Shown: positions 1,184 through 8,409 of the stretch, one piece after another
How positions within the stretch are numbered: position 1 is the stretch's first letter
Layout: every line of letters begins with the position of its first letter
NCBI RefSeq assembly: GCF_030013205.1
Contig: NZ_CP122648.1
Source of the DNA: Escherichia coli
Lineage (GTDB): Bacteria > Pseudomonadota > Gammaproteobacteria > Enterobacterales > Enterobacteriaceae
Reading direction: 5' to 3' (one strand)
DNA length: 64,000 nucleotides
Notes under the pieces: model-generated
Database searches by the model: none
What the model was told of the DNA's origin: nothing
Seen by the model: the letters and a program-made list of their open reading frames with translations, nothing else
Position numbers and translations under genes: made by a program

Positions 1184-2113
1184 TCAGTAGTTATGTACTG
1201 AAGGAGGTAATTCTTTATTCTTAAGTCTCATCCATGCAGAAAGATTCGTTGGTCCGCCTGGCTCATTGATATCAACATCTCGTGTGTGGTTGATTAAAAC
1301 GTCTCTCGCCATTCCGATAACATACGAGAATTCATGACCGTAGTCGTAGCATCTGCCGGAATAGTTCGATTGAATTTGTTTTAGCGCCGGATACAGTTCG
1401 CGGAATAATGCCTGTGAGCGGTTGGCATAATCCCATAACCATACAAGGCTGTTTGCTTCTTTTGCAGAAAGCTCGTTGGTTTTCTTCTCTTGTTTGCCAA
1501 TGAACTCACCTTCAAGTGGAACTCGAGCTGCAAGTGATAGTGCTTCGGTAAACTGCTCCTCACTGATTTCTTTGTACGAACATCCAAAATGGGATTTCAG
1601 TGACGACCACATGGTGATCATCGCCTTAGCCTGTTTTTCTTTTGGCAGAGACTGACCGCGACTCATGACGAGTTGTTTAATGGCTTCCTGCTGTTCAGTG
1701 GTGATTTTACCCGGCAACGCCTTTTTAGCTTTGCGTGGGTTAACTACATGGCCTTTAGTCCAGTATTCGTAGAGCACATCGTCACACTCTTCCTGATACT
1801 GGATTACCTTGTCGCGGATTTCAGGGCGTACTTTGTTAGGGCTAATGGTTTGCAGCCAACCTGCAAGTTTGCGAAGTGCCAAACAAATAATCTCACGGCG
1901 CTGTTCATCACCTGAAAGCTGCATTGTGATTTTCACAATGGAGGTTTTAAACCGCTGCTTCATTTTCGTAAACTGTGAAGCCCAATCCATACCCATACCT
2001 TCAACGATAGGTTTCATTGGGGTGTACGGCTCACCGTTGTGATTGACGACATAAAGCTCTGCGCCGTGGAATGGCACGTTGATAGTAGATACTGCTGTTG
2101 CTATACTTTTCAT
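1184..2113 (-). CDS. ant: Phage antirepressor (Ant-like)
   Basis: 309-aa ORF immediately downstream of the arc-like gene, in the position of P22 ant; N-terminus [47 protein letters not shown] resembles the AntA antirepressor family as recalled. Confidence 0.75.
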
Positions 2114-2179
2114 GTCAGTTTTTCCTCAAAATTTACTGGCGATTTAAGCCCGAGCTACTCGCAATAGCTTGGGCTTTAC

Positions 2180-2326
2180 TCATTCTGGACAAACAATTCC
2201 ATCCTTAGCTACTGACTCCTTTAGTCTCCTCAATACCTCATTACTGAACGACCGATCATCCTTTTTCGCGGACTGCTCCAAAGCCTTTTCCAGCCATTCT
2301 GGCATCCTTAATGTCTTAACTTTCAT
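2180..2326 (-). CDS. arc: Arc-like ribbon-helix-helix repressor, 48 aa (not in ORF track)
   Basis: Translated by hand: MKVKTLRMPEWLEKALEQSAKKDDRSFSNEVLRRLKESVAKDGIVCPE, with AAGGAG RBS 5 nt upstream. Sits between the divergent mnt-like gene and ant as in P22 immI. Confidence 0.7.
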   Translation of the reverse strand: MKVKTLRMPEWLEKALEQSAKKDDRSFSNEVLRRLKESVAKDGIVCPE

Positions 2327-2430
2327 TTTTGCTCCTTTGTATGTGGTACGCATACATAGTATTTAGGTACGCATTGATAGTCAATAGATACCTACATATC
2401 CTGTGGTAAAAAATTATTCAGGATGCGCCG

Positions 2431-2682
2431 ATGTCTGATCGTAAGTACAAAAACCCTCAAGTGAATCTGAGGCTTCCTGTAGAGATAAAGGAACGTCTTA
2501 TTGAACTGGCTGAGGCTAATTCTCGTTCATTAAATGCTGAGATGGTCGCAGCACTTGAAGCATGGACCGAAAAAAACAAACACATTCAAGCACTAGATCT
2601 TGCAACTATAGCATCGCGACTGATAGAGCTTGAGCATGATGTTGAGAAGTTAAAATGCATGCATGGCAATGGTGAAAAATGA
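2431..2682 (+). CDS. mnt: Mnt-like ribbon-helix-helix repressor
   Basis: 83 aa; N-terminal NLRLPVEIKERLIELAEANSRSLNAEMVAAL resembles the recalled P22 Mnt RHH motif; divergent from arc-ant. Confidence 0.7.
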   Translation: MSDRKYKNPQVNLRLPVEIKERLIELAEANSRSLNAEMVAALEAWTEKNKHIQALDLATIASRLIELEHDVEKLKCMHGNGEK

Positions 2683-2996
2683 AACGTATCGCTATCCTAT
2701 TGCTCCTGTGTCTCTCGAGCATAGCTAACGCAGAAACAAAATCAGACGATAGCAGTTTTGATGAAATACAAGGCCTCATGATAGCTTCGAAAATGGCTGG
2801 TATGTGTGGTGCAATCAAACAAATGGCAATATTCCAAGAATCTACAAACATGCCGGGTGGGAATGAATTCTTGCAGAGATTCCTTACTACAGAGCAAGCA
2901 AGGCTTGGGATGACTCCGCAGCAATTTCTTGAAGCATGTCAGAAATCAATCTCTATTTATACCACCTATTACAATATGAGCTCTGAGAAAAAATAG
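2679..2996 (+). CDS. Secreted protein of unknown function (moron)
   Basis: 105 aa with a signal peptide MKRIAILLLLCLSSIANA. Its ATG overlaps the mnt stop (ATGA). Confidence 0.55.
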   Translation: MKRIAILLLLCLSSIANAETKSDDSSFDEIQGLMIASKMAGMCGAIKQMAIFQESTNMPGGNEFLQRFLTTEQARLGMTPQQFLEACQKSISIYTTYYNMSSEKK

Positions 2997-3005
2997 ACTA
3001 GGATT

Positions 3006-3191
3006 TCAACAACTTCCGCGTCCCTGAGTAATTCTGTCGCGGATTTGCTTCTTACGGTGATTTAAGCTGGAGAGTTTGGCTTCTGCTTCTGATATTTGCG
3101 CATCCAGATCTTTAAGTTCAAGCTCTGAAAGTCGCTGGTCAAGCAGGGTTTGGTTTAACTCAATGTTGTTCAGACGTTCTTCTATAGTCAT
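3006..3191 (-). CDS. Small coiled-coil protein, hypothetical
   Basis: 61-aa ORF with AAGGT RBS; Leu/Glu heptad-rich sequence. Confidence 0.35.
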   Translation of the reverse strand: MTIEERLNNIELNQTLLDQRLSELELKDLDAQISEAEAKLSSLNHRKKQIRDRITQGRGSC

Positions 3192-3216
3192 ATTGTTACC
3201 TTAGTGGGAGATTAGT

Positions 3217-3441
3217 ATGATTTCTGCTATTTTATCGGTGCTGCTAGCGTCATTATTCATCGGAGTGGTGTTGATCTCCCCGATGCCAATAATATCAATA
3301 TTATTCATCTTGATGATCGGCTGGTTGTGGCTTAAAAAGGCAAGAAACGATTATTTTTTATCCATAAGAGATAAGCAATTAGAGCTTTTCCGCTTGGGGT
3401 ACACTGGCGACTTGCCATTCTTAACATACCAAAAAAAGTAA
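3217..3441 (+). CDS. Small membrane protein (2 predicted TM helices), hypothetical
   Basis: 74 aa, hydrophobic N-terminal two thirds and basic tail; GGGAG RBS; followed by a terminator hairpin. Confidence 0.5.
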   Translation: MISAILSVLLASLFIGVVLISPMPIISILFILMIGWLWLKKARNDYFLSIRDKQLELFRLGYTGDLPFLTYQKK

Positions 3442-3447
3442 TAATCA

Positions 3448-3470
3448 AGCCGGTTCACTCCGGCTTTTTG
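3448..3470 (+). terminator. Intrinsic terminator after the 74-aa membrane protein gene
   Basis: Hairpin AGCCGG-TTCACT-CCGGCT followed by TTTTT. Confidence 0.5.
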
Positions 3471-3820
3471 ATATGTCGCTCGCAGAACTCAACAAGCCTG
3501 CTCATTAAGTAGCAGTAAGTCTCGTTGGCTCTTCCTGGTTCAACATCAACACCTACCCTTGAGCAGATATCGAATGCCATGTGAGCGCACTCATGGGCAA
3601 TAGTAGATAGTTTGCCATTGAACACGCCTATCACATGCAAAACACCATTCTCGCTACTCATTGTATGAGACGCTCCGTTGGCGTCCGAGTCATGCACGTC
3701 AACGCCAAGTTTTTGATGCAGGCGTTGCCATTCTGGAAAGTCTCTACAAAACACAATTGTACCGCTCTCAAAGAGCGGAACGAGCATCTTTGGTACGTTT
3801 CCAATGTTAACTTTTTTCAT
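3455..3820 (-). CDS. Small HExxH-motif protein, putative zinc metallopeptidase-like (moron)
   Basis: 121 aa containing IAHECAHMAFD (HExxH) and several Cys/His residues; AGGA RBS. No homolog recalled. Confidence 0.55.
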   Translation of the reverse strand: MKKVNIGNVPKMLVPLFESGTIVFCRDFPEWQRLHQKLGVDVHDSDANGASHTMSSENGVLHVIGVFNGKLSTIAHECAHMAFDICSRVGVDVEPGRANETYCYLMSRLVEFCERHIKKPE

Positions 3821-3850
3821 GGTATCCTGCGCAAAACTAAGGAGGTTGGT

Positions 3851-4039
3851 GTGAAGAAAAAATTTGTAAACGTTGCAAAGTGCGCAATTTTTATATTTTT
3901 TATGACCTTTTACGGATTTAGTGCCGGAGAAGGTTTCGATCGTGATGCCAATGCATTCAGTTTCTTTTGTCTGTCTATAGTGGTCATAATTGTATGGGTG
4001 GAATTAAAGCAAACATTGTTTCATGTGCTAGGGAAATAA
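3851..4039 (+). CDS. Small membrane protein (about 62 aa, GTG start), hypothetical
   Basis: Strong RBS AAGGAGG 5 nt before GTG; two hydrophobic segments (AIFIFFMTFYGF, FFCLSIVVIIVWV); AT-rich. It is the 3' part of track ORF 3635..4039. Confidence 0.4.
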   Translation: MKKKFVNVAKCAIFIFFMTFYGFSAGEGFDRDANAFSFFCLSIVVIIVWVELKQTLFHVLGK

Positions 4040-4056
4040 CCATCCATGGCTTTCCG

Positions 4057-6321
4057 TTACTTCTGGTTATCATCACTGTTCATCCAGTACATGATGCCTA
4101 GCCTTGATATGGTTTTCTTATCTGATTCTGGAAGTGAGTTGTAAAACGAGCGCCAAGCAGAAGAGCGTCTTACAGTTGTATCAACGATGCTTTCTGGTGC
4201 TTGTTTTACTGCCAGCCTTGCTGCTTTCTGGAATTCTGGTGAGCTAATTAGCTTTTCTGCAGATTCAATTGATTCAGCGCCGCCCATCGCCCTGATTTTG
4301 CTGGCGACTTTTGCCCCAATTTCTGACCCAGCAACAGCACCTACTGCACTGAACGGTCCTGACACAGTTGAACCAACCGCAGTGCCAATGCGTTGGGCAT
4401 GGTTAGCAACAAATTCATTTGCCGCAGTGACGCGATTAAACCGTTTGACGAACTCGTTTAGTCTTCCTGTAGTTATCTCGTAAGATTTTGCGTCTTTGAT
4501 AGCCTTTGCGACCTTATATACATCGTTCAGACCTGACATAGTCTCTTTTGGTAAATGTCGGGCAAGATTGCGCATCTGCCCGTTTGCTAACATGTTTTGA
4601 TACCAGTCAGCAAACCCTGCAGGATTAAAATCAGCGCCACGTTTTCCGTTCGAAAGCATATCCCGAAGACCTGTTCCCAGTAGCTCGGTTCTTAGCTTCC
4701 TGGACGGCGTGTTTTGCATCAATTCACGAAATCCTTTGGCATCGCCTTTCGACATTGCCTGTAGTGCTGTAGTTGCTTTGCGAGAAACATCACCGTTCAG
4801 CGTTCTGCCAGTTAGATTAATCATTTGCTCTTCCATGCTTTTTCGCATCTGAACAAGCCTCTGAGCAACTTCAAAATCACGTAATGCATTTGTCTCTGAC
4901 AGCGCCGCCTTTTGATCATCGGCGAGCGAACCGTAAAGCCTCGATAAAGCAGCGCGATCAGCATCTTTATATGGTCCAGAATTCTTATGAAGTGCATCAC
5001 CAACAAGTCGTCGTTGCTTATTGAGATTTGCATAAGTTAATGCGCCGTTCTTGCCTGGATTAATTGCCCGAAAGACTCTCTTTTCAATAGGGTCAAGGTT
5101 TTTCATCCCGCCAAGATCTTCTGCCACCTGTTTGAGCATTGACCTTGTTGATGGCGCATCAATTTTTGCACCTGCAGGCATCGCCTTTTCAACATTGCGA
5201 TAAAGCTGGTCGCTTCGTTTCATCAGCGCAGACATTCTTCCATTGACCGTATCAATAAACTTGTCGCTCATACCAAGAGCATCTTTTGCACCGGAAACGC
5301 GATCAATTATCTCCCCCGCGCCCTGTGCTAGCTGCCTGATTGCTTCATTTTCCTGCACCTGTAGAGCAGAACCCGCACGGGACTTGATTGCTTGCTCAAC
5401 TGCCTTGTATTGCTCGTTCCCGGAAAAGTGTGAAGGGAGTAATGAATCAACATTAAGCCTTTCAGCAGACTCCAGAACTTCAGCCTGAGGATTGATATCT
5501 AGTTCATCAAGCGATGAAGCGAGATTTGGCCTTTTTTGTGCTGCTACTGTGCGAACGACTTCCTCTGGGTTCCTCGTCGCAGGAGTCATTGGTACACCTT
5601 GTGCTGCTCTTGCCTCTGCGGCATGAACCGCAGGATTTGTTGCCTCTGCGGCATCACCGGAGAATGGTGATGTTTCTGTTGGCGCAGTGGTCGCTCTCTG
5701 TGCAGATGTTTTATTGCCACTAATTATATTTGATGCACCACGAACACCACGGGTAACGCCATTTATCAGGCCATGCGTAGCAATGTTAAGTCCGGCATTA
5801 ATAGCGGCATTTTCGGCAAAATCACCCTCCTGATTTGCAGCATCAGCAAGAGAACCTGCAATCATGTTTCCTGCGGAACCGATGTCTCCTGCGAGCTTTG
5901 CTGGCGCTCCAGCAACTTTTGCCGCTGTGCCAATTGGCAGGAGATACCCACCAATTGTTTCACCGGCTTGCGCCCAAGGGTCTGTCGGTCGATCGACAGG
6001 GCGATAAACATCATCCAAAACCTTGGGGCCACCAAGCCCCTGGCTGATTGCATTAATCAGACTTGCGCCACCCTGCAATACGTCAAATGGTATGTTTACC
6101 AGACCACGACCAGCCTGTTCTGCAATTTGCCCTGCGCTTTGACCACCAGTGAGCCAGTCAGTAGCTTTTCCCACCAGAGATTGTTCTTCTGGCTGCGATT
6201 GGTTTTGAGTGGATTGATCACCAGAAGACAGCATCTGAGCAATGCGACGTGCTCCCTCAGTATCGCCGGCAGCATCAGCATTCCTTAACGCCGTCATCAA
6301 CTGTTCACGACTATAGGCCAT
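4057..6321 (-). CDS. DNA ejection/transfer protein (P22 gp16-like by synteny)
   Basis: 754-aa ORF directly downstream of the gp20-like gene; Gly/Ala-rich segments. Confidence 0.7.
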
Positions 6322-7706
6322 TACTGCTCTCCGAGATATTTGCTAATTAATTCGTCATCGGACAATTGCTGTTGAGGTTGGCTATCGCCATAACTTGAGG
6401 AAAGAAAACGTTTTGCCGCAGAGTTCAATGACTCACCCTTCTTAACATCCATCCCCATGATGTTTCGGTTGCGATCAGATTGTCCTGGGCTGCCATTTGC
6501 ACTCATCCACTCTGACTTAAACTCGTTGAACTTCGCGTTATTACTTTCCATTTTTGCCATACCCCTTAACCATCGAGCCATGACCATTGGATTATCCGTT
6601 TCGCTTGGAATGCCTTTCCTTGCAAACTCAATATCCTTATCTGATGCAGGGCCGGGAGGGAGAAGCTTGGTTGCCTGCGCATTGGCTAGTTGGTTGAATC
6701 TAATCCGCATATCTCGGAGGTAGTTATCTTGCCCCGTAAGCTTAGAGAACATATTTTCAGCGTTACCGAACAAACCAGGAGTTGGCTTCTCCTTCTCCAG
6801 CGTGTCAGCGAGCGTTGTCATTGAATCGGCAGCATTACGACTAGCTGCCGCATCACCTGCTGATTTTTCTATAGCCTTTTCCATGTTCACTGATAATTTT
6901 GGCGCTGCATTAATAAGTTTCTCGGCCTTTTTTTGTGCCTGTTGTACTTCAAAACCGAATTTCTGCTTATCAAGTGCCAGTCTTTCTGCTGCAAGTCCGT
7001 GTCCGGTCATTGCAGACTGATAGGAAAGGTTTTGCCCCCTAATAGCCCTCGCATTCGTCATGTCATTATTGCGAATGGTTTCGTTAATTCTTTGCTGTTC
7101 CTGCTGGCGACCAACCATCTTATCCTGAACAGCAAACGCCTTTTCTGGTCCAAGCGCACCGAGAGACATAGTAGTCAGCATGTGTGATAGCTGCTCTGGA
7201 TTCTGGATACCTGTCTGAATCATCCAGTCAGCATTAGCACCAACGCGATTTAACCTGTCCTTGTTGTCAGTAATGAATTTACTGTAGGCTTCCGGCCCCT
7301 GAGAAAGAGCGACGTTAGCTCTCATGGCTAAATCGCCCATATCGTTGCGTTGCTGATCATTAAGACCTGAAAAAGCCTGTTGTGCCTGTGCAACAAACGC
7401 TGGATTTTCCTGGGCAAACTTAAATAGTCCCGATGGATCACCAGAAGCCCATGCATCAGCGTGAACCTTATTGAACGCCCTAATCGCTTTCTGTTGCTGT
7501 TCCTGCTTATAAATATCAGCAACTCCAGCCAGACCACGTAACGCGGTCAGACTAACGTTATTTGCACCTGATCGAGACAGTTCATTGTTTTCGCGGATCA
7601 GACCAAGCGTTGCATTAATGTCGCTTGCCTTTGGCGCATTCTCGTTTTGCGCACCAATGCCAGCCAGAAAACCACCAGAATTAATACCCTGTTGCCACGT
7701 AGCCAT
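6321..7706 (-). CDS. DNA ejection/transfer protein (P22 gp20-like)
   Basis: 461 aa, the size of P22 gp20, in the gp7-gp20-gp16 order. Confidence 0.7.
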
Positions 7707-7716
7707 TGATTACCCC

Positions 7717-8409
7717 TTAAAACAGTGAACCAAGCAGACCAAGACCAGCACCGATACCAGCACCCCACGGAGTTGATAGCTCGAGAGCACTGGCTATGCC
7801 ACCACCCAAAAGCGCACCGGATGCAGCACCACTAACCCCCTGCTGCAATGCTGACGGTCGGTTGGCATTTGCCGCAGCCAGCGCCGCGCTTTGCTGTGAA
7901 ATCTGACTCATGTTGTTGGCATATGTTTGCCCGGCGTTTGCCTGCCCCTGAAGAGCGCCAAGACCGATATTTGCCAGGTTGTTGTAATTGTTCATTTGTC
8001 CAGATAGCCATTGCTGACCAAGCGTTGGTGCGATTGTTGCTAACTGATTACTGGTTGCGGTGGAACCCAATCCACCTGTTGCTTCCGCTGCCGCAAGACT
8101 CTGATAGCGAGCCTGACCTGAAAGGTCTTTATACTGCTGAGAGTTGTAATACTGGTTAAGTGCCTGACCTTGCCCTTCCAGAGACGATAAGTTCTCGAGG
8201 CTGCCGACATACTTATCAGCCAGAGGAGTAAACGGCTTCAGGTTGTTCATGATGGTGTTGAACTGCTGATTTTGCAGGTCTGCTGCATACTTCTGAGCTT
8301 CTGCGGCATACTTTGCACTTTTATCAGAACTGCCACCTTTCCCGCCTTTTTCAGGGCAATAAGGTTCCTCGCCGCGCAGTTTTCTGCCCAGCTTAAATGC
8401 ATATAACAT
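7717..8409 (-). CDS. DNA ejection/transfer protein (P22 gp7-like)
   Basis: 230 aa starting MLYAFKLGRKLRGEEP with a Gly-rich C-terminus, recalled as typical of P22-like gp7. Confidence 0.7.
   Translation of the reverse strand: MLYAFKLGRKLRGEEPYCPEKGGKGGSSDKSAKYAAEAQKYAADLQNQQFNTIMNNLKPFTPLADKYVGSLENLSSLEGQGQALNQYYNSQQYKDLSGQARYQSLAAAEATGGLGSTATSNQLATIAPTLGQQWLSGQMNNYNNLANIGLGALQGQANAGQTYANNMSQISQQSAALAAANANRPSALQQGVSGAASGALLGGGIASALELSTPWGAGIGAGLGLLGSLF

What the first reader, a model, noticed from the sequence alone, without database searches (positions are those of the whole stretch)
2679..4056. Moron cluster of five small genes between the immI region and the ejection genes
In the P22 position of sieA-type accessory genes, this 1.4-kb segment holds five short ORFs in alternating orientation: a secreted 105-aa protein, a 61-aa coiled-coil protein, a 74-aa two-TM protein, a 121-aa HExxH protein and a 62-aa two-TM protein. 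Several have good RBSs and one terminator, and the segment is more AT-rich than the flanking structural genes. Small membrane and periplasmic proteins here are typical of superinfection-exclusion or other host-protective cargo. I recognise none of them as a described system.
Basis: inference. Interest (0 to 1): 0.6.

Follow-up and report, generated by a model that had tools for sequence, protein, structure and literature searches.

The report
Swappable accessory genes in P22-like prophage
The five small genes are real, but they are separately exchangeable cassettes in the already described, highly variable "ant moron" region of P22-like prophages. Three look like envelope proteins made by the resting prophage, and one is an unrecognised mini zinc-protease found in P22 itself.

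Summary
Five ORFs sit at 2679-2996(+), 3006-3191(-), 3217-3441(+), 3455-3820(-) and 3851-4039(+), between mnt and the gene-16 homologue of a P22-like prophage. The stretch checked (window 2100-4300) is 100% identical to E. coli ETEC4079.

Four ORFs show purifying selection. The 74-aa ORF is plausible but less certain.

They are not one system. Among 80 related phage loci, all five occur together only once.

A 420-bp core (terminator, hkcC, sieA promoter, ribosome-binding site, GTG start) is about 98-100% conserved. It is 98% identical to P22 and HK620. It ends exactly after the GTG start codon that P22 uses for sieA. At least 11 unrelated, mostly membrane or secreted proteins are plugged in there, the 62-aa ORF among them.

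The plus-strand genes are probably expressed in the lysogen and are candidate exclusion or conversion factors. This group is the mnt-coupled periplasmic 105-aa protein, the 74-aa membrane protein and the 62-aa hairpin. That function is inferred, not shown.

The minus-strand genes lie in sense to the late operon. The 121-aa protein is HK620 HkcC. It belongs to a family of 514 clusters whose only invariant residues are H-E-x-x-H plus a Glu 20 residues downstream. The AlphaFold model (pLDDT 94) has a zincin-like topology.

The region type is already known as the "ant moron". None of the five proteins is characterised. Interest is moderate.

The parts
2431..2682 (+). mnt-like Arc-family repressor. 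It is the upstream gene of the transcription unit that carries O1 and O3.
   Evidence: Pfam Arc, E=3e-10. PGAP names it 'Arc family DNA-binding protein'. It occupies the position of P22 mnt.
2679..2996 (+). O1: a 105-aa predicted periplasmic protein with a Sec signal peptide and a three-helix mature part carrying two conserved Cys. It is translationally coupled to mnt through an ATGA overlap.
   Evidence: Sequence. phrog_19844, unknown function. C43 is invariant and C87 nearly invariant across homologues. dN/dS 0.12-0.15. The 4-nt overlap with the Arc-family gene is kept in homologues of 65-72% identity. AF2 pLDDT is 74 overall and 82-92 in the core, with three helices. A 47%-identical homologue sits in the sieA slot of phage Kapi1 and of two IMG/VR loci.
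3006..3191 (-). O2: a 61-aa soluble, coiled-coil-like protein lying in sense to the late operon.
   Evidence: phrog_7586. A 187-bp unit exactly the length of the gene is shared with phages Kapi1 and Emek at 93.5%. dN/dS 0.046. Present in 20 of 80 hkcC loci. The XhlA Pfam match scores only 13.9 bits against a cut-off of 34.7.
3217..3441 (+). O3: a 74-aa predicted membrane protein with a hydrophobic N-terminal 40 aa and a basic C-terminal tail. It is an alternative allele to P22 orf59a.
   Evidence: Hydropathy. It ends 13 nt from the hkcC stop, exactly as orf59a does. This slot has only two alleles: orf59a in 66 loci and O3 in 11. The exact protein occurs on 569 contigs of E. coli and Salmonella. 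Variants are mostly conservative. There is no PHROG match and no distant homologue. PGAP does not annotate it.
3447..3466 (.). A bidirectional stem-loop terminator (t-mnt / tORF59A) that closes the mnt-O1-O3 transcription unit.
   Evidence: The terminator scan scores it on both strands. The homologous positions are annotated as terminators in P22-pbi and HK620.
3455..3820 (-). O4 = HkcC: a 121-aa cytoplasmic protein predicted to be a minimal zincin-type (HExxH+E) metallopeptidase, lying in sense to the late operon.
   Evidence: 99% identical to HK620 HkcC. A profile search finds 514 clusters at 50% identity. The only invariant columns across 116 sequences are H76, E77, H80 and E100. AF2 pLDDT 94.1 with topology beta-beta-alpha-beta-beta-alpha(HExxH)-alpha(E100). 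Weak PDB sequence matches to thermolysin and myroilysin align on these motifs. BFVD structural neighbours include 'SprT-like' and 'PolyVal metallopeptidase' entries.
3433..3853 (.). The conserved core block: the end of the orf59a slot, the terminator, hkcC, PsieA, the ribosome-binding site and the GTG start codon.
   Evidence: 98.1% identical to P22 and 98.6% to HK620. Per-base conservation is about 100% across 80 IMG/VR loci, with sharp edges at ~3425-3433 and at 3853.
3790..3853 (+). The 'sieA dock': the putative PsieA promoter (3790-3820), the ribosome-binding site TAAGGAGGT (3838-3846) and the GTG start (3851-3853), all reused by unrelated cassette genes.
   Evidence: The P22-pbi PsieA annotation maps to these positions. 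In P22, 85 bp upstream of the start codon was enough for single-copy SieA function (PMC10883804). The junction AAAACTAAGGAGGTTGGTGTG precedes at least 10 unrelated ORFs. One further cassette, a lipoprotein, joins just after the SD with its own ATG.
3851..4039 (+). O5: a 62-aa predicted inner-membrane hairpin (two TM segments with a conserved GEGFDRD loop), sitting in the sieA slot.
   Evidence: Sequence and hydropathy. phrog_21338. Homologues of 62 aa at 79-82% identity occur in Salmonella and Serratia. dN/dS 0.28-0.35. The gene always ends 17-18 nt from the gene-16 stop. Present in 88 of 5426 complete E. coli genomes. Present but unannotated in phages JEP4 and UPF_BP1.

Best explanation
The segment is this prophage's version of the 'ant moron', the hypervariable accessory region that P22-like phages carry between ejection gene 16 and the tailspike gene. 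It is built from single-gene cassettes that recombine independently around a highly conserved 420-bp core. The core holds a bidirectional terminator, hkcC, the sieA promoter, a consensus ribosome-binding site and a GTG start codon.

The two strands carry two expression programmes.

**Plus strand: prophage programme (inferred).** mnt, O1 and O3 form one unit that runs from Pmnt to the terminator. O5 is read from the same promoter, ribosome-binding site and start codon that drive sieA in P22. These products are a periplasmic, probably disulphide-bonded helical protein (O1) and two small inner-membrane proteins (O3, O5). Most probably they alter the envelope of the lysogen. The leading guess is that they block DNA delivery by superinfecting phages, as SieA does from the same dock.

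**Minus strand: late programme (inferred).** O4/HkcC and O2 lie in sense to the late transcript, which runs from gene 16 through this region to arc, ant and the tailspike gene. HkcC has no conserved upstream promoter of its own, so it is most likely read as a late gene. It is predicted to be a cytoplasmic minimal zinc metallopeptidase. O2 is a short soluble coiled-coil protein.

**Shown:** gene reality, mosaic structure, the shared dock, motif invariance and the predicted fold.
**Inferred:** expression timing, localisation, catalysis and any anti-phage role.
For: - **Location and identity.** ant, arc and mnt lie upstream; the 16, 20 and 7 homologues lie downstream. Window 2100-4300 is 100% identical to ETEC4079.
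- **Region type.** It is described in PMC2629481 as the variable 'ant moron', through which late transcription reaches the tailspike gene.
- **Core block.** It is 98% identical to P22 and HK620. Its edges are sharp, and the right edge falls exactly after the GTG.
- **Dock cargo in 80 loci.** A 161-aa lipoprotein (18 loci), HkcB-like proteins (14), a 129-aa secreted protein (12), SieA (11), a 75-aa two-TM protein (8), a 106-aa protein (5), O5 (4), a 149-aa protein (3), a 68-aa protein (2), an O1-like protein (2) and a 140-aa protein (1). Nearly all have a signal peptide or TM segment.
- **Dock function.** In P22, SieA expressed from 85 bp of this upstream DNA is sufficient for exclusion (PMC10883804).
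- **Independent assortment.** See for co-occurrence and for prevalence in E. coli genomes.
- **Purifying selection.**
- **O1-mnt coupling.** The 4-nt overlap is conserved in diverged homologues.
- **HkcC.** It has invariant H, E, H and E, a pLDDT-94 zincin-like model, and the core topology described for zincin-like MPTases in PMC5512222. Paralogues sit inside late operons, between the lysis and head genes, in ST64T and mEp044. Everything beyond 33 nt upstream of hkcC differs between loci.
Against: - No expression, localisation or phenotype data exist for any of the five proteins.
- PADLOC finds nothing relevant.
- O5 and O3 share no sequence, size or motif with SieA.
- Dock and moron cargo need not be anti-phage. 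A Rap1a-family (type VI secretion immunity) protein occupies the equivalent place in a Serratia prophage, and Panacea-domain genes occur in some E. coli variants.
- O3 has no diverged homologues and is not called by PGAP.
- The terminator between hkcC and O2 could limit O2 expression unless late antitermination carries transcription through it.
Confidence: 0.55

Rival explanations
1. The five ORFs form one multi-gene defence or exclusion system whose parts work together.
For: They are adjacent, small and mostly envelope-directed. The full set recurs in a few genomes: 5 of 5426 E. coli genomes cover at least 80% of the 2.2-kb query, and one IMG/VR locus, L025, has all five. O3 is always found together with O2.
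Against: The ORFs assort independently. Each has its own mosaic boundaries. They lie on opposite strands with different predicted timing. O1 homologues occur with SieA-like or lipoprotein genes and without O2-O5. O5 homologues occur behind unrelated genes. HkcC is present in P22 and HK620 without the other four.
Confidence: 0.05
2. The envelope proteins (O1, O3, O5) are lysogenic-conversion or host-fitness factors rather than anti-phage exclusion factors. Possible roles include protection against bacterial competitors, stress or host immunity.
For: A Rap1a-family protein lies in the equivalent slot of a Serratia prophage, directly upstream of an O5 homologue. In the IMG/VR survey the most common dock cassette is a lipoprotein of unknown role. 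Nothing matches PADLOC. The host strains are porcine ETEC, APEC and clinical isolates.
Against: The only characterised occupant of the dock is SieA, an anti-injection protein (PMC10883804). The slot abuts the ejection-protein genes, which that paper describes as among the most variable of the virion genes.
Confidence: 0.25
3. HkcC is an ImmA/IrrE-like regulatory protease that inactivates a repressor of the adjacent immI region (Mnt or Arc), or the main repressor, and so acts as a switch.
Confidence: 0.1
4. One or more of the short ORFs (O3 above all, possibly O5) are not genes. The DNA would then be spacer or regulatory sequence between real genes.
For: PGAP omits O3 in every record examined and omits O5 in most. 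O3 has no PHROG match and no diverged homologue. Many chance ORFs of similar size overlap the region.
Against: O5 has a consensus SD, dN/dS of 0.28-0.35, a length fixed at 62 aa across 79-82%-identical homologues, and a PHROG family. O3 has a good ribosome-binding site and a strongly hydrophobic N-terminus. It ends in exact register with orf59a. Both polymorphic sites seen among the four related loci compared with the window are synonymous third positions. Its amino-acid variants are mostly conservative, and other pipelines annotate it on hundreds of contigs.
Confidence: 0.15

Closest known systems
The 'ant moron' of P22-like phages (Villafane et al. 2008, PMC2629481), including the P22 sieA-hkcC-orf59a-mnt-arc-ant region
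   Same: Same position between the gene 16 and gene 9 homologues. It has the same immI genes and the same conserved hkcC / terminator / PsieA core at 98% identity. It shows the same variability in unknown small genes.
   Different: This gene set replaces sieA with the 62-aa O5 and replaces orf59a with the 74-aa O3. It also has O1 and O2 inserted between mnt and the orf59a slot. The combination is rare: 1 of 80 surveyed loci and 5 of 5426 E. coli genomes.
P22 SieA (inner-membrane superinfection exclusion protein; Leavitt et al. 2024, PMC10883804; Pfam PF26849)
   Same: O5 uses the same promoter region, ribosome-binding site and GTG start codon, and is likewise predicted to be an inner-membrane protein made by the prophage. 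An O1 homologue also occupies this dock in other phages.
   Different: There is no sequence similarity. O5 is 62 aa with 2 TM segments, against 164-204 aa with 4-5 TM segments. The FxRYPxEAxxFNK motif is absent. No exclusion phenotype has been tested.
HK620 HkcC / PHROG 1365
   Same: O4 is 99% identical over all 121 aa and sits in the same position and orientation.
   Different: Nothing differs. HkcC itself has never been characterised. The zincin prediction made here is new annotation, not a known function.
Zincin-like metallopeptidases (gluzincins such as thermolysin; minimal zincins such as PDB 3e11; SprT-like proteins; the MPTase domains of phage 'polyvalent proteins', Iyer et al. 2017, PMC5512222)
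   Same: HExxH on one helix and an invariant Glu at the start of the next. The His-to-Glu spacing is 20 residues, as in thermolysin. A small beta-sheet with one helix precedes the two active-site helices.
XhlA (PF10779), the name PGAP gives to some O2 relatives
   Same: A short N-terminal coiled-coil-like segment that aligns weakly with the model.
   Different: The score is 13.9 bits against a cut-off of 34.7. As I recall, XhlA has a C-terminal membrane segment; O2 has none. O2 is not next to lysis genes.

Membership tests
P22-like 'ant moron' accessory region | Lies between the homologues of ejection gene 16 and tailspike gene 9 of a P22-like virion gene cluster | tested here: met
   The 7, 20 and 16 homologues lie at 8409-4057 (-). 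The tailspike (a head-binding-domain protein) lies beyond ant in ETEC4079.
P22-like 'ant moron' accessory region | Contains immI-type genes (mnt, arc, ant, sar) and variable unknown genes, with sequence similarity to other ant morons | tested here: met
   Pfam Arc twice, plus P22_AR_N and P22_AR_C. A sar RNA-like match scores 29.3 bits, below the gathering score of 43. A 420-bp block is 98% identical to P22 and HK620.
SieA (PF26849) - tested for O5 and O3 | Sequence similarity to SieA types A, B or C, including the FxRYPxEAxxFNK motif | tested here: not met
   No Pfam hit at E<=1. The motif is absent from both sequences.
SieA (PF26849) - tested for O5 and O3 | Inner-membrane protein of ~160-200 aa with four or five TM segments | tested here: not met
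   O5 is 62 aa with two hydrophobic segments. O3 is 74 aa with one long hydrophobic stretch or two short ones.
SieA (PF26849) - tested for O5 and O3 | Expressed from PsieA in the slot abutting gene 16 | tested here: met
   Met for O5 only. Its start codon coincides with the P22 sieA start, and the upstream sequence is 98% identical.
SieA (PF26849) - tested for O5 and O3 | Blocks DNA injection by P22-like phages | not testable with these tools
   This needs plating and K+ efflux assays.
HkcC (HK620) / PHROG 1365 - tested for O4 | Full-length sequence identity and the same genomic position | tested here: met
   99.2% identity over 121 aa. phrog_1365 at E=1.7e-39. Same flanking terminator and promoter.
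Zincin-like (gluzincin) metallopeptidase - tested for O4 | An HExxH motif on a helix plus a third zinc ligand (Glu) on the following helix, conserved across the family | tested here: met
   H76, E77, H80 and E100 are the only invariant columns in 116 diverse sequences. They lie in helices 71-88 and 100-116 of the model.
Zincin-like (gluzincin) metallopeptidase - tested for O4 | Significant sequence or structure match to an established zincin family | tested here: inconclusive
Zincin-like (gluzincin) metallopeptidase - tested for O4 | Zinc binding and peptidase activity | not testable with these tools
   This needs purified protein.
ImmA/IrrE (Peptidase_M78) - tested for O4 | Match to the family model and pairing with a cognate HTH repressor gene | tested here: not met
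   No Pfam or NCBIfam hit. hkcC is retained in HK620 without a functional mnt, arc or ant. Paralogues lie in late operons.
XhlA (PF10779) - tested for O2 | Score above the Pfam gathering threshold | tested here: not met
   13.9 bits against a cut-off of 34.7. In addition, O2 has no hydrophobic segment, whereas XhlA, as I recall, has a C-terminal membrane segment.
Known anti-phage defence systems (PADLOC-DB v2) | Any protein matching a model of a known or candidate system | tested here: not met
   The only matches are coiled-coil noise for O2 (PbeC at E 6e-4 and JetC, aligned to small parts of large models). The other four ORFs match nothing.

The most novel reading that the evidence does not exclude
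The conserved PsieA / ribosome-binding-site / GTG 'dock' is a hot-swap expression site. P22-like prophages use it to exchange a dozen or more unrelated envelope proteins. Under this reading each is a distinct blocker of the gp7/gp20/gp16 DNA-delivery conduit, and O5 and the O1 family (possibly also O3, from the neighbouring mnt-unit slot) are new, very small exclusion proteins. The invariant neighbour HkcC would be a late-made, possibly virion-delivered, minimal zinc protease that the phage uses against host or rival-prophage barriers. HkcC would then represent a large unstudied class (514 clusters) of phage proteases.
Probability: 0.2. Interest if true: 0.65.

Novelty: new member of a known kind. 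Interest (0 to 1): 0.4.

Why it matters
The region type is known, so the finding is not a new kind of system. It does give two concrete, testable leads.

First, the sieA position is a fixed promoter, ribosome-binding site and start codon into which at least 11 unrelated small envelope proteins are plugged. Only one of them, SieA, has ever been studied. The 62-aa and 105-aa proteins here are compact candidates for how lysogens block DNA entry, and possibly for how ejection-protein diversity is driven.

Second, HkcC is present in the model phage P22 itself and is left unannotated in the P22 reference records examined. It belongs to a large uncurated family with a textbook zinc-protease signature and a confident predicted fold. 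P22 genetics could settle its role quickly.

Tried and rejected
- **Family libraries.** Pfam, NCBIfam and PADLOC scans of all five proteins gave nothing significant. PHROGs gave only 'unknown function' families.
- **PDB sequence searches.** O1 gave nothing meaningful. O4 gave only marginal zincin matches.
- **Foldseek against AFDB50.** The library was unavailable.
- **The search for related loci with the 116-sequence alignment.** It failed because no stretch was conserved enough. The closer alignment A1 returned only near-identical P22-like loci. These were good for the cassette survey but said nothing about distant contexts.
- **Contexts of distant HkcC relatives.** They were phage-like but not informative about function.
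- **Literature.** 'hkcC' and 'orf59a' yielded no functional study. The P22 RNA-seq paper does not report this region.
- **Rfam.** It found only a sub-threshold sar-like match outside the segment.
- **Repeats.** The scan found only the operator-like repeat near mnt and one probably fortuitous 18-nt inverted repeat.
- **Ideas considered and rejected.**
  - O2 as XhlA: below threshold and without a TM segment.
  - O1 as Rap1a: no Pfam match.
  - O1 as a lipoprotein: there is no lipobox, and the Cys in the signal peptide is not conserved.
Full report
**1. What is in the sequence.**
The window carries a P22-like (Lederbergvirus-type) prophage in reverse orientation relative to the P22 map. The layout is as follows:
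- ant at 1184-2113 (-)
- arc at 2180-2353 (-)
- an mnt-like Arc-family gene at 2431-2682 (+)
- the five ORFs of the finding
- the homologues of ejection genes 16 (4057-6321, -), 20 (6321-7706, -) and 7 (7717-8409, -)

Window 2100-4300 is 100% identical to the chromosome of porcine E. coli ETEC4079, where the tailspike gene follows ant.

- **O1**, 2679-2996 +, 105 aa. It has a Sec-type signal peptide, MKRIAILLLLCLSSIANA|E. Its ATG overlaps the mnt stop as ATGA.
- **O2**, 3006-3191 -, 61 aa, charged and coiled-coil-like.
- **O3**, 3217-3441 +, 74 aa. About 40 hydrophobic residues are followed by a basic tail.
- **O4**, 3455-3820 -, 121 aa, with HECAH.
- **O5**, 3851-4039 +, 62 aa. It has a GTG start 4 nt after TAAGGAGGT and two hydrophobic segments flanking GEGFDRD.

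A stem-loop terminator lies at 3447-3466. GC content is lower than in the ejection genes, except within O4.

**2. Are they genes?**
- Against diverged homologues, dN/dS is 0.12-0.15 for O1, 0.046 for O2, 0.05-0.21 for O4 and 0.28-0.35 for O5.
- Among four loci that are 97-98% identical, variable sites fall at third codon positions in 7 of 8 cases for O1, 9 of 9 for O4, 11 of 18 for O2 and 2 of 2 for O3.
- Four of the five belong to PHROG families, all of unknown function. O3 belongs to none.
- O3 has only near-identical relatives, and PGAP does not annotate it.
- However, the exact O3 protein is called on 569 contigs of E. coli and Salmonella. Its 15 sequence variants differ by mostly conservative substitutions in the hydrophobic half, and the C-terminal 35 residues are almost unchanged.

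I take O1, O2, O4 and O5 as real genes and O3 as probable.

**3. The segment is a mosaic of independent cassettes around a conserved core.**

*The core.*
- Window 3433-3853 is 98.1% identical to P22 and 98.6% to HK620, phages whose structural genes are otherwise very different (PMC2629481).
- In those records the block carries the t-mnt / tORF59A terminator, hkcC (annotated in HK620, unannotated in most P22 records) and the PsieA promoter.
- In 80 IMG/VR loci recovered through HkcC, per-base conservation across this block is about 100% and the edges are sharp. These loci were the best 80 matches by protein identity, so the uniformity is partly a selection effect.

*The right edge, or "dock".*
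- The block ends immediately after the GTG start codon.
- The junction AAAACTAAGGAGGTTGGTGTG is followed by unrelated coding sequences: SieA (11 loci), a 129-aa secreted protein (12), HkcB-like proteins (14), a 75-aa two-TM protein (8), a 106-aa protein (5), O5 (4), a 149-aa protein (3), a 68-aa protein (2), an O1 homologue (2) and a 140-aa protein (1).
- A 161-aa lipoprotein (18 loci) joins just after the SD.
- Nearly all of these have a signal peptide or TM segment.

*The left edge.*
- Only two alleles occur here: orf59a in 66 loci and O3 in 11. Both end 13 nt from the hkcC stop.

*Co-occurrence.*
- In the 80 loci, O2 occurs in 20, O3 in 11 (always with O2), O1 in 7 and O5 in 4. All five occur together once.
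- Among 5426 complete E. coli genomes, O5 is in 88, O1+O2 together in 35, O3 in 14, and at least 80% of the 2.2-kb region in 5.
- O2 is exchanged as a unit exactly the length of the gene: 187 bp at 93.6% identity in phage Kapi1 and about 93.5% in Emek.
- O5 homologues of about 80% identity in Salmonella and Serratia follow a lipoprotein gene or a Rap1a-family gene. They always end 17-18 nt from the gene-16 stop, next to gp16 proteins of several different lengths.
- O1 homologues of 65-72% identity always overlap the stop of the Arc-family gene by 4 nt. They are followed by SieA-like or lipoprotein genes and lack O2-O5.
- A 47%-identical O1 relative sits in the dock of Kapi1.

The five genes are therefore not a co-inherited system.

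**4. Strand logic (inference).**
The literature states that late transcription from PLate passes through the ant moron to reach the tailspike gene (PMC2629481). In this window that is the minus strand. The order is 16, then antisense O5, hkcC, the terminator, antisense O3, O2, antisense O1 and mnt, then arc, ant and the tailspike gene.

Only 33 nt upstream of hkcC are conserved, and the rest differs with each cassette. hkcC therefore cannot have a conserved promoter of its own and is most simply read as a late gene.

HkcC paralogues support this. Orf-129 of ST64T, L and epsilon34 (38-40% identity) lies inside the late operon between the lysis genes and dec/terminase. A relative in lambdoid mEp044 lies just after the lysozyme gene.

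On the plus strand, mnt-O1-O3 form a unit ending at the terminator, as mnt-orf59a does in P22. O5 inherits the sieA promoter region. In P22, 85 bp upstream of the start codon was enough for strong single-copy SieA function (PMC10883804).

**5. HkcC (O4).**
- *Family size.* A profile search of 1.84 billion representative proteins found 514 clusters at E<=1e-3, mostly stand-alone proteins of 110-130 aa.
- *Conservation.* In a 116-sequence alignment with a mean column identity of 13%, the only invariant columns are H76, E77, H80 and E100.
- *Spacing.* The His-to-Glu spacing of 20 residues equals that of thermolysin (H146 to E166, from my own knowledge). phmmer aligns exactly these motifs to neutral protease and thermolysin at E=0.09. 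The family profile aligns to myroilysin and astacins at E=0.03-0.13.
- *Model.* AlphaFold2 with this alignment gives pLDDT 94.1 and pTM 0.87. The topology is beta-beta-alpha-beta-beta, then a helix at 71-88 (HExxH), then a helix at 100-116 that starts with E100. This matches the zincin-like MPTase core described by Iyer et al. (PMC5512222).
- *Viral structure comparison.* Foldseek against BFVD finds many uncharacterised phage proteins at TM 0.6-0.84. They come from temperate, virulent, N4-like and crAss-like phages. A few are named SprT-like, Metalloprotease or PolyVal metallopeptidase.
- *Curation.* No Pfam or NCBIfam family covers it.

I conclude that HkcC is very probably a minimal zinc-binding zincin. 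Catalysis and substrate are unknown.

An ImmA-like repressor-cleaving role is unlikely. HK620 keeps hkcC without a working immI region, and paralogues sit far from any repressor.

**6. The other proteins.**
- **O5.** It is a predicted hairpin with a basic N-terminus, a conserved short loop and a basic C-terminus.
- **O3.** It is hydrophobic over residues 1-40, with a 35-residue C-terminal tail that is almost invariant among the known variants.
- **O2.** It is soluble. Its XhlA match, the name PGAP gives to some relatives, scores 13.9 bits against a cut-off of 34.7, and O2 has no membrane segment.

None of these matches PADLOC.

**7. Comparison with what is known, and verdict.**
The region type is the "ant moron" of P22-like phages. 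[quoted passage not shown] SieA is the only characterised occupant of the dock (PMC10883804). That paper also notes that only 22 of 66 P22-like phages carry sieA.

The present segment is a rare allele combination of this known region.

Three things are new here:
- The dock runs through the start codon and serves at least 11 unrelated envelope proteins.
- O1 is coupled to mnt.
- HkcC is predicted to be a zincin.

The anti-phage interpretation of O1, O3 and O5 rests only on position, predicted expression and predicted localisation. Non-phage roles remain open, because a Rap1a-family protein and Panacea-domain genes occur in equivalent positions elsewhere.

Interest is moderate. This is a well-supported re-description of a known hypervariable locus, with two good experimental leads.

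Noticed in passing
window 2114-2180 (+): An Rfam sar RNA match (RF00262; 29.3 bits, below the gathering score of 43; E=0.005) lies between ant and arc, where P22 has its antisense sar RNA. This suggests a diverged but complete immI control circuit.
   Followed up: no
window 2345-2386: Two tandem 21-nt repeats (GGTACGCATACATAGTATTTA and GGTACGCATTGATAGTCAATA) lie in the arc-mnt intergenic region. They are probably the Mnt/Arc operators between the divergent promoters.
   Followed up: no
window 4057-6321 (-): The 754-aa protein in the gene-16 position has no Pfam Phage_P22_gp16 match. In ETEC4079, PGAP annotates only an internal fragment of it, as a 'lytic transglycosylase domain-containing' pseudogene. 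It appears to be a divergent ejection-protein type.
   Followed up: partly
L012 3644-3991 and L013 3644-3991 (metagenome-assembly contigs with no organism label; their O5-type protein is one NCBI records from Serratia fonticola): A 115-aa secreted protein with a Pfam Rap1a hit (a type VI secretion immunity family) sits directly upstream of the O5 homologue, next to gene 16. Cargo at this locus is therefore not restricted to anti-phage functions.
   Followed up: no
L102 3001-3390 (ST64T); also phages L, epsilon34 and ST104: A 38-40%-identical HkcC paralogue (Orf-129) lies in the late operon between the lysis cassette and the dec and small-terminase genes. Some phages (Phi75, UAB_Phi20, SE1, ST160) show two matching places in the record, which may be hkcC plus a paralogue; the second place was not examined.
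   Followed up: partly
E. coli hits H33, H37, H38, H48-H50: Some E. coli variants of this region carry a 'Panacea domain-containing protein' gene (a toxin-antitoxin-associated domain) inserted within the same accessory segment.
   Followed up: no
L009-L011 3445-3492 and 3983-4000; L022 near the dock: The ribosome-binding-site / start junction sequence of the dock is repeated in front of both the lipoprotein gene and the downstream O5 homologue, and it is tandemly duplicated (GGAGGTTGGAGGTTGGTGTG) in L022 and L023. The junction may itself be the recombination substrate for cassette gain and loss.
   Followed up: partly
window 2616-2633 and 3118-3135: An 18-nt inverted repeat (83% complementary) links the 3' part of mnt and the inside of O2. 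It is probably fortuitous.
   Followed up: no
L005 (phage JEP4) 1902-2734: In JEP4 an unannotated O5 copy (97% identity) follows a C2-like repressor gene instead of hkcC. This shows that the O5 cassette also travels without the conserved core.
   Followed up: partly
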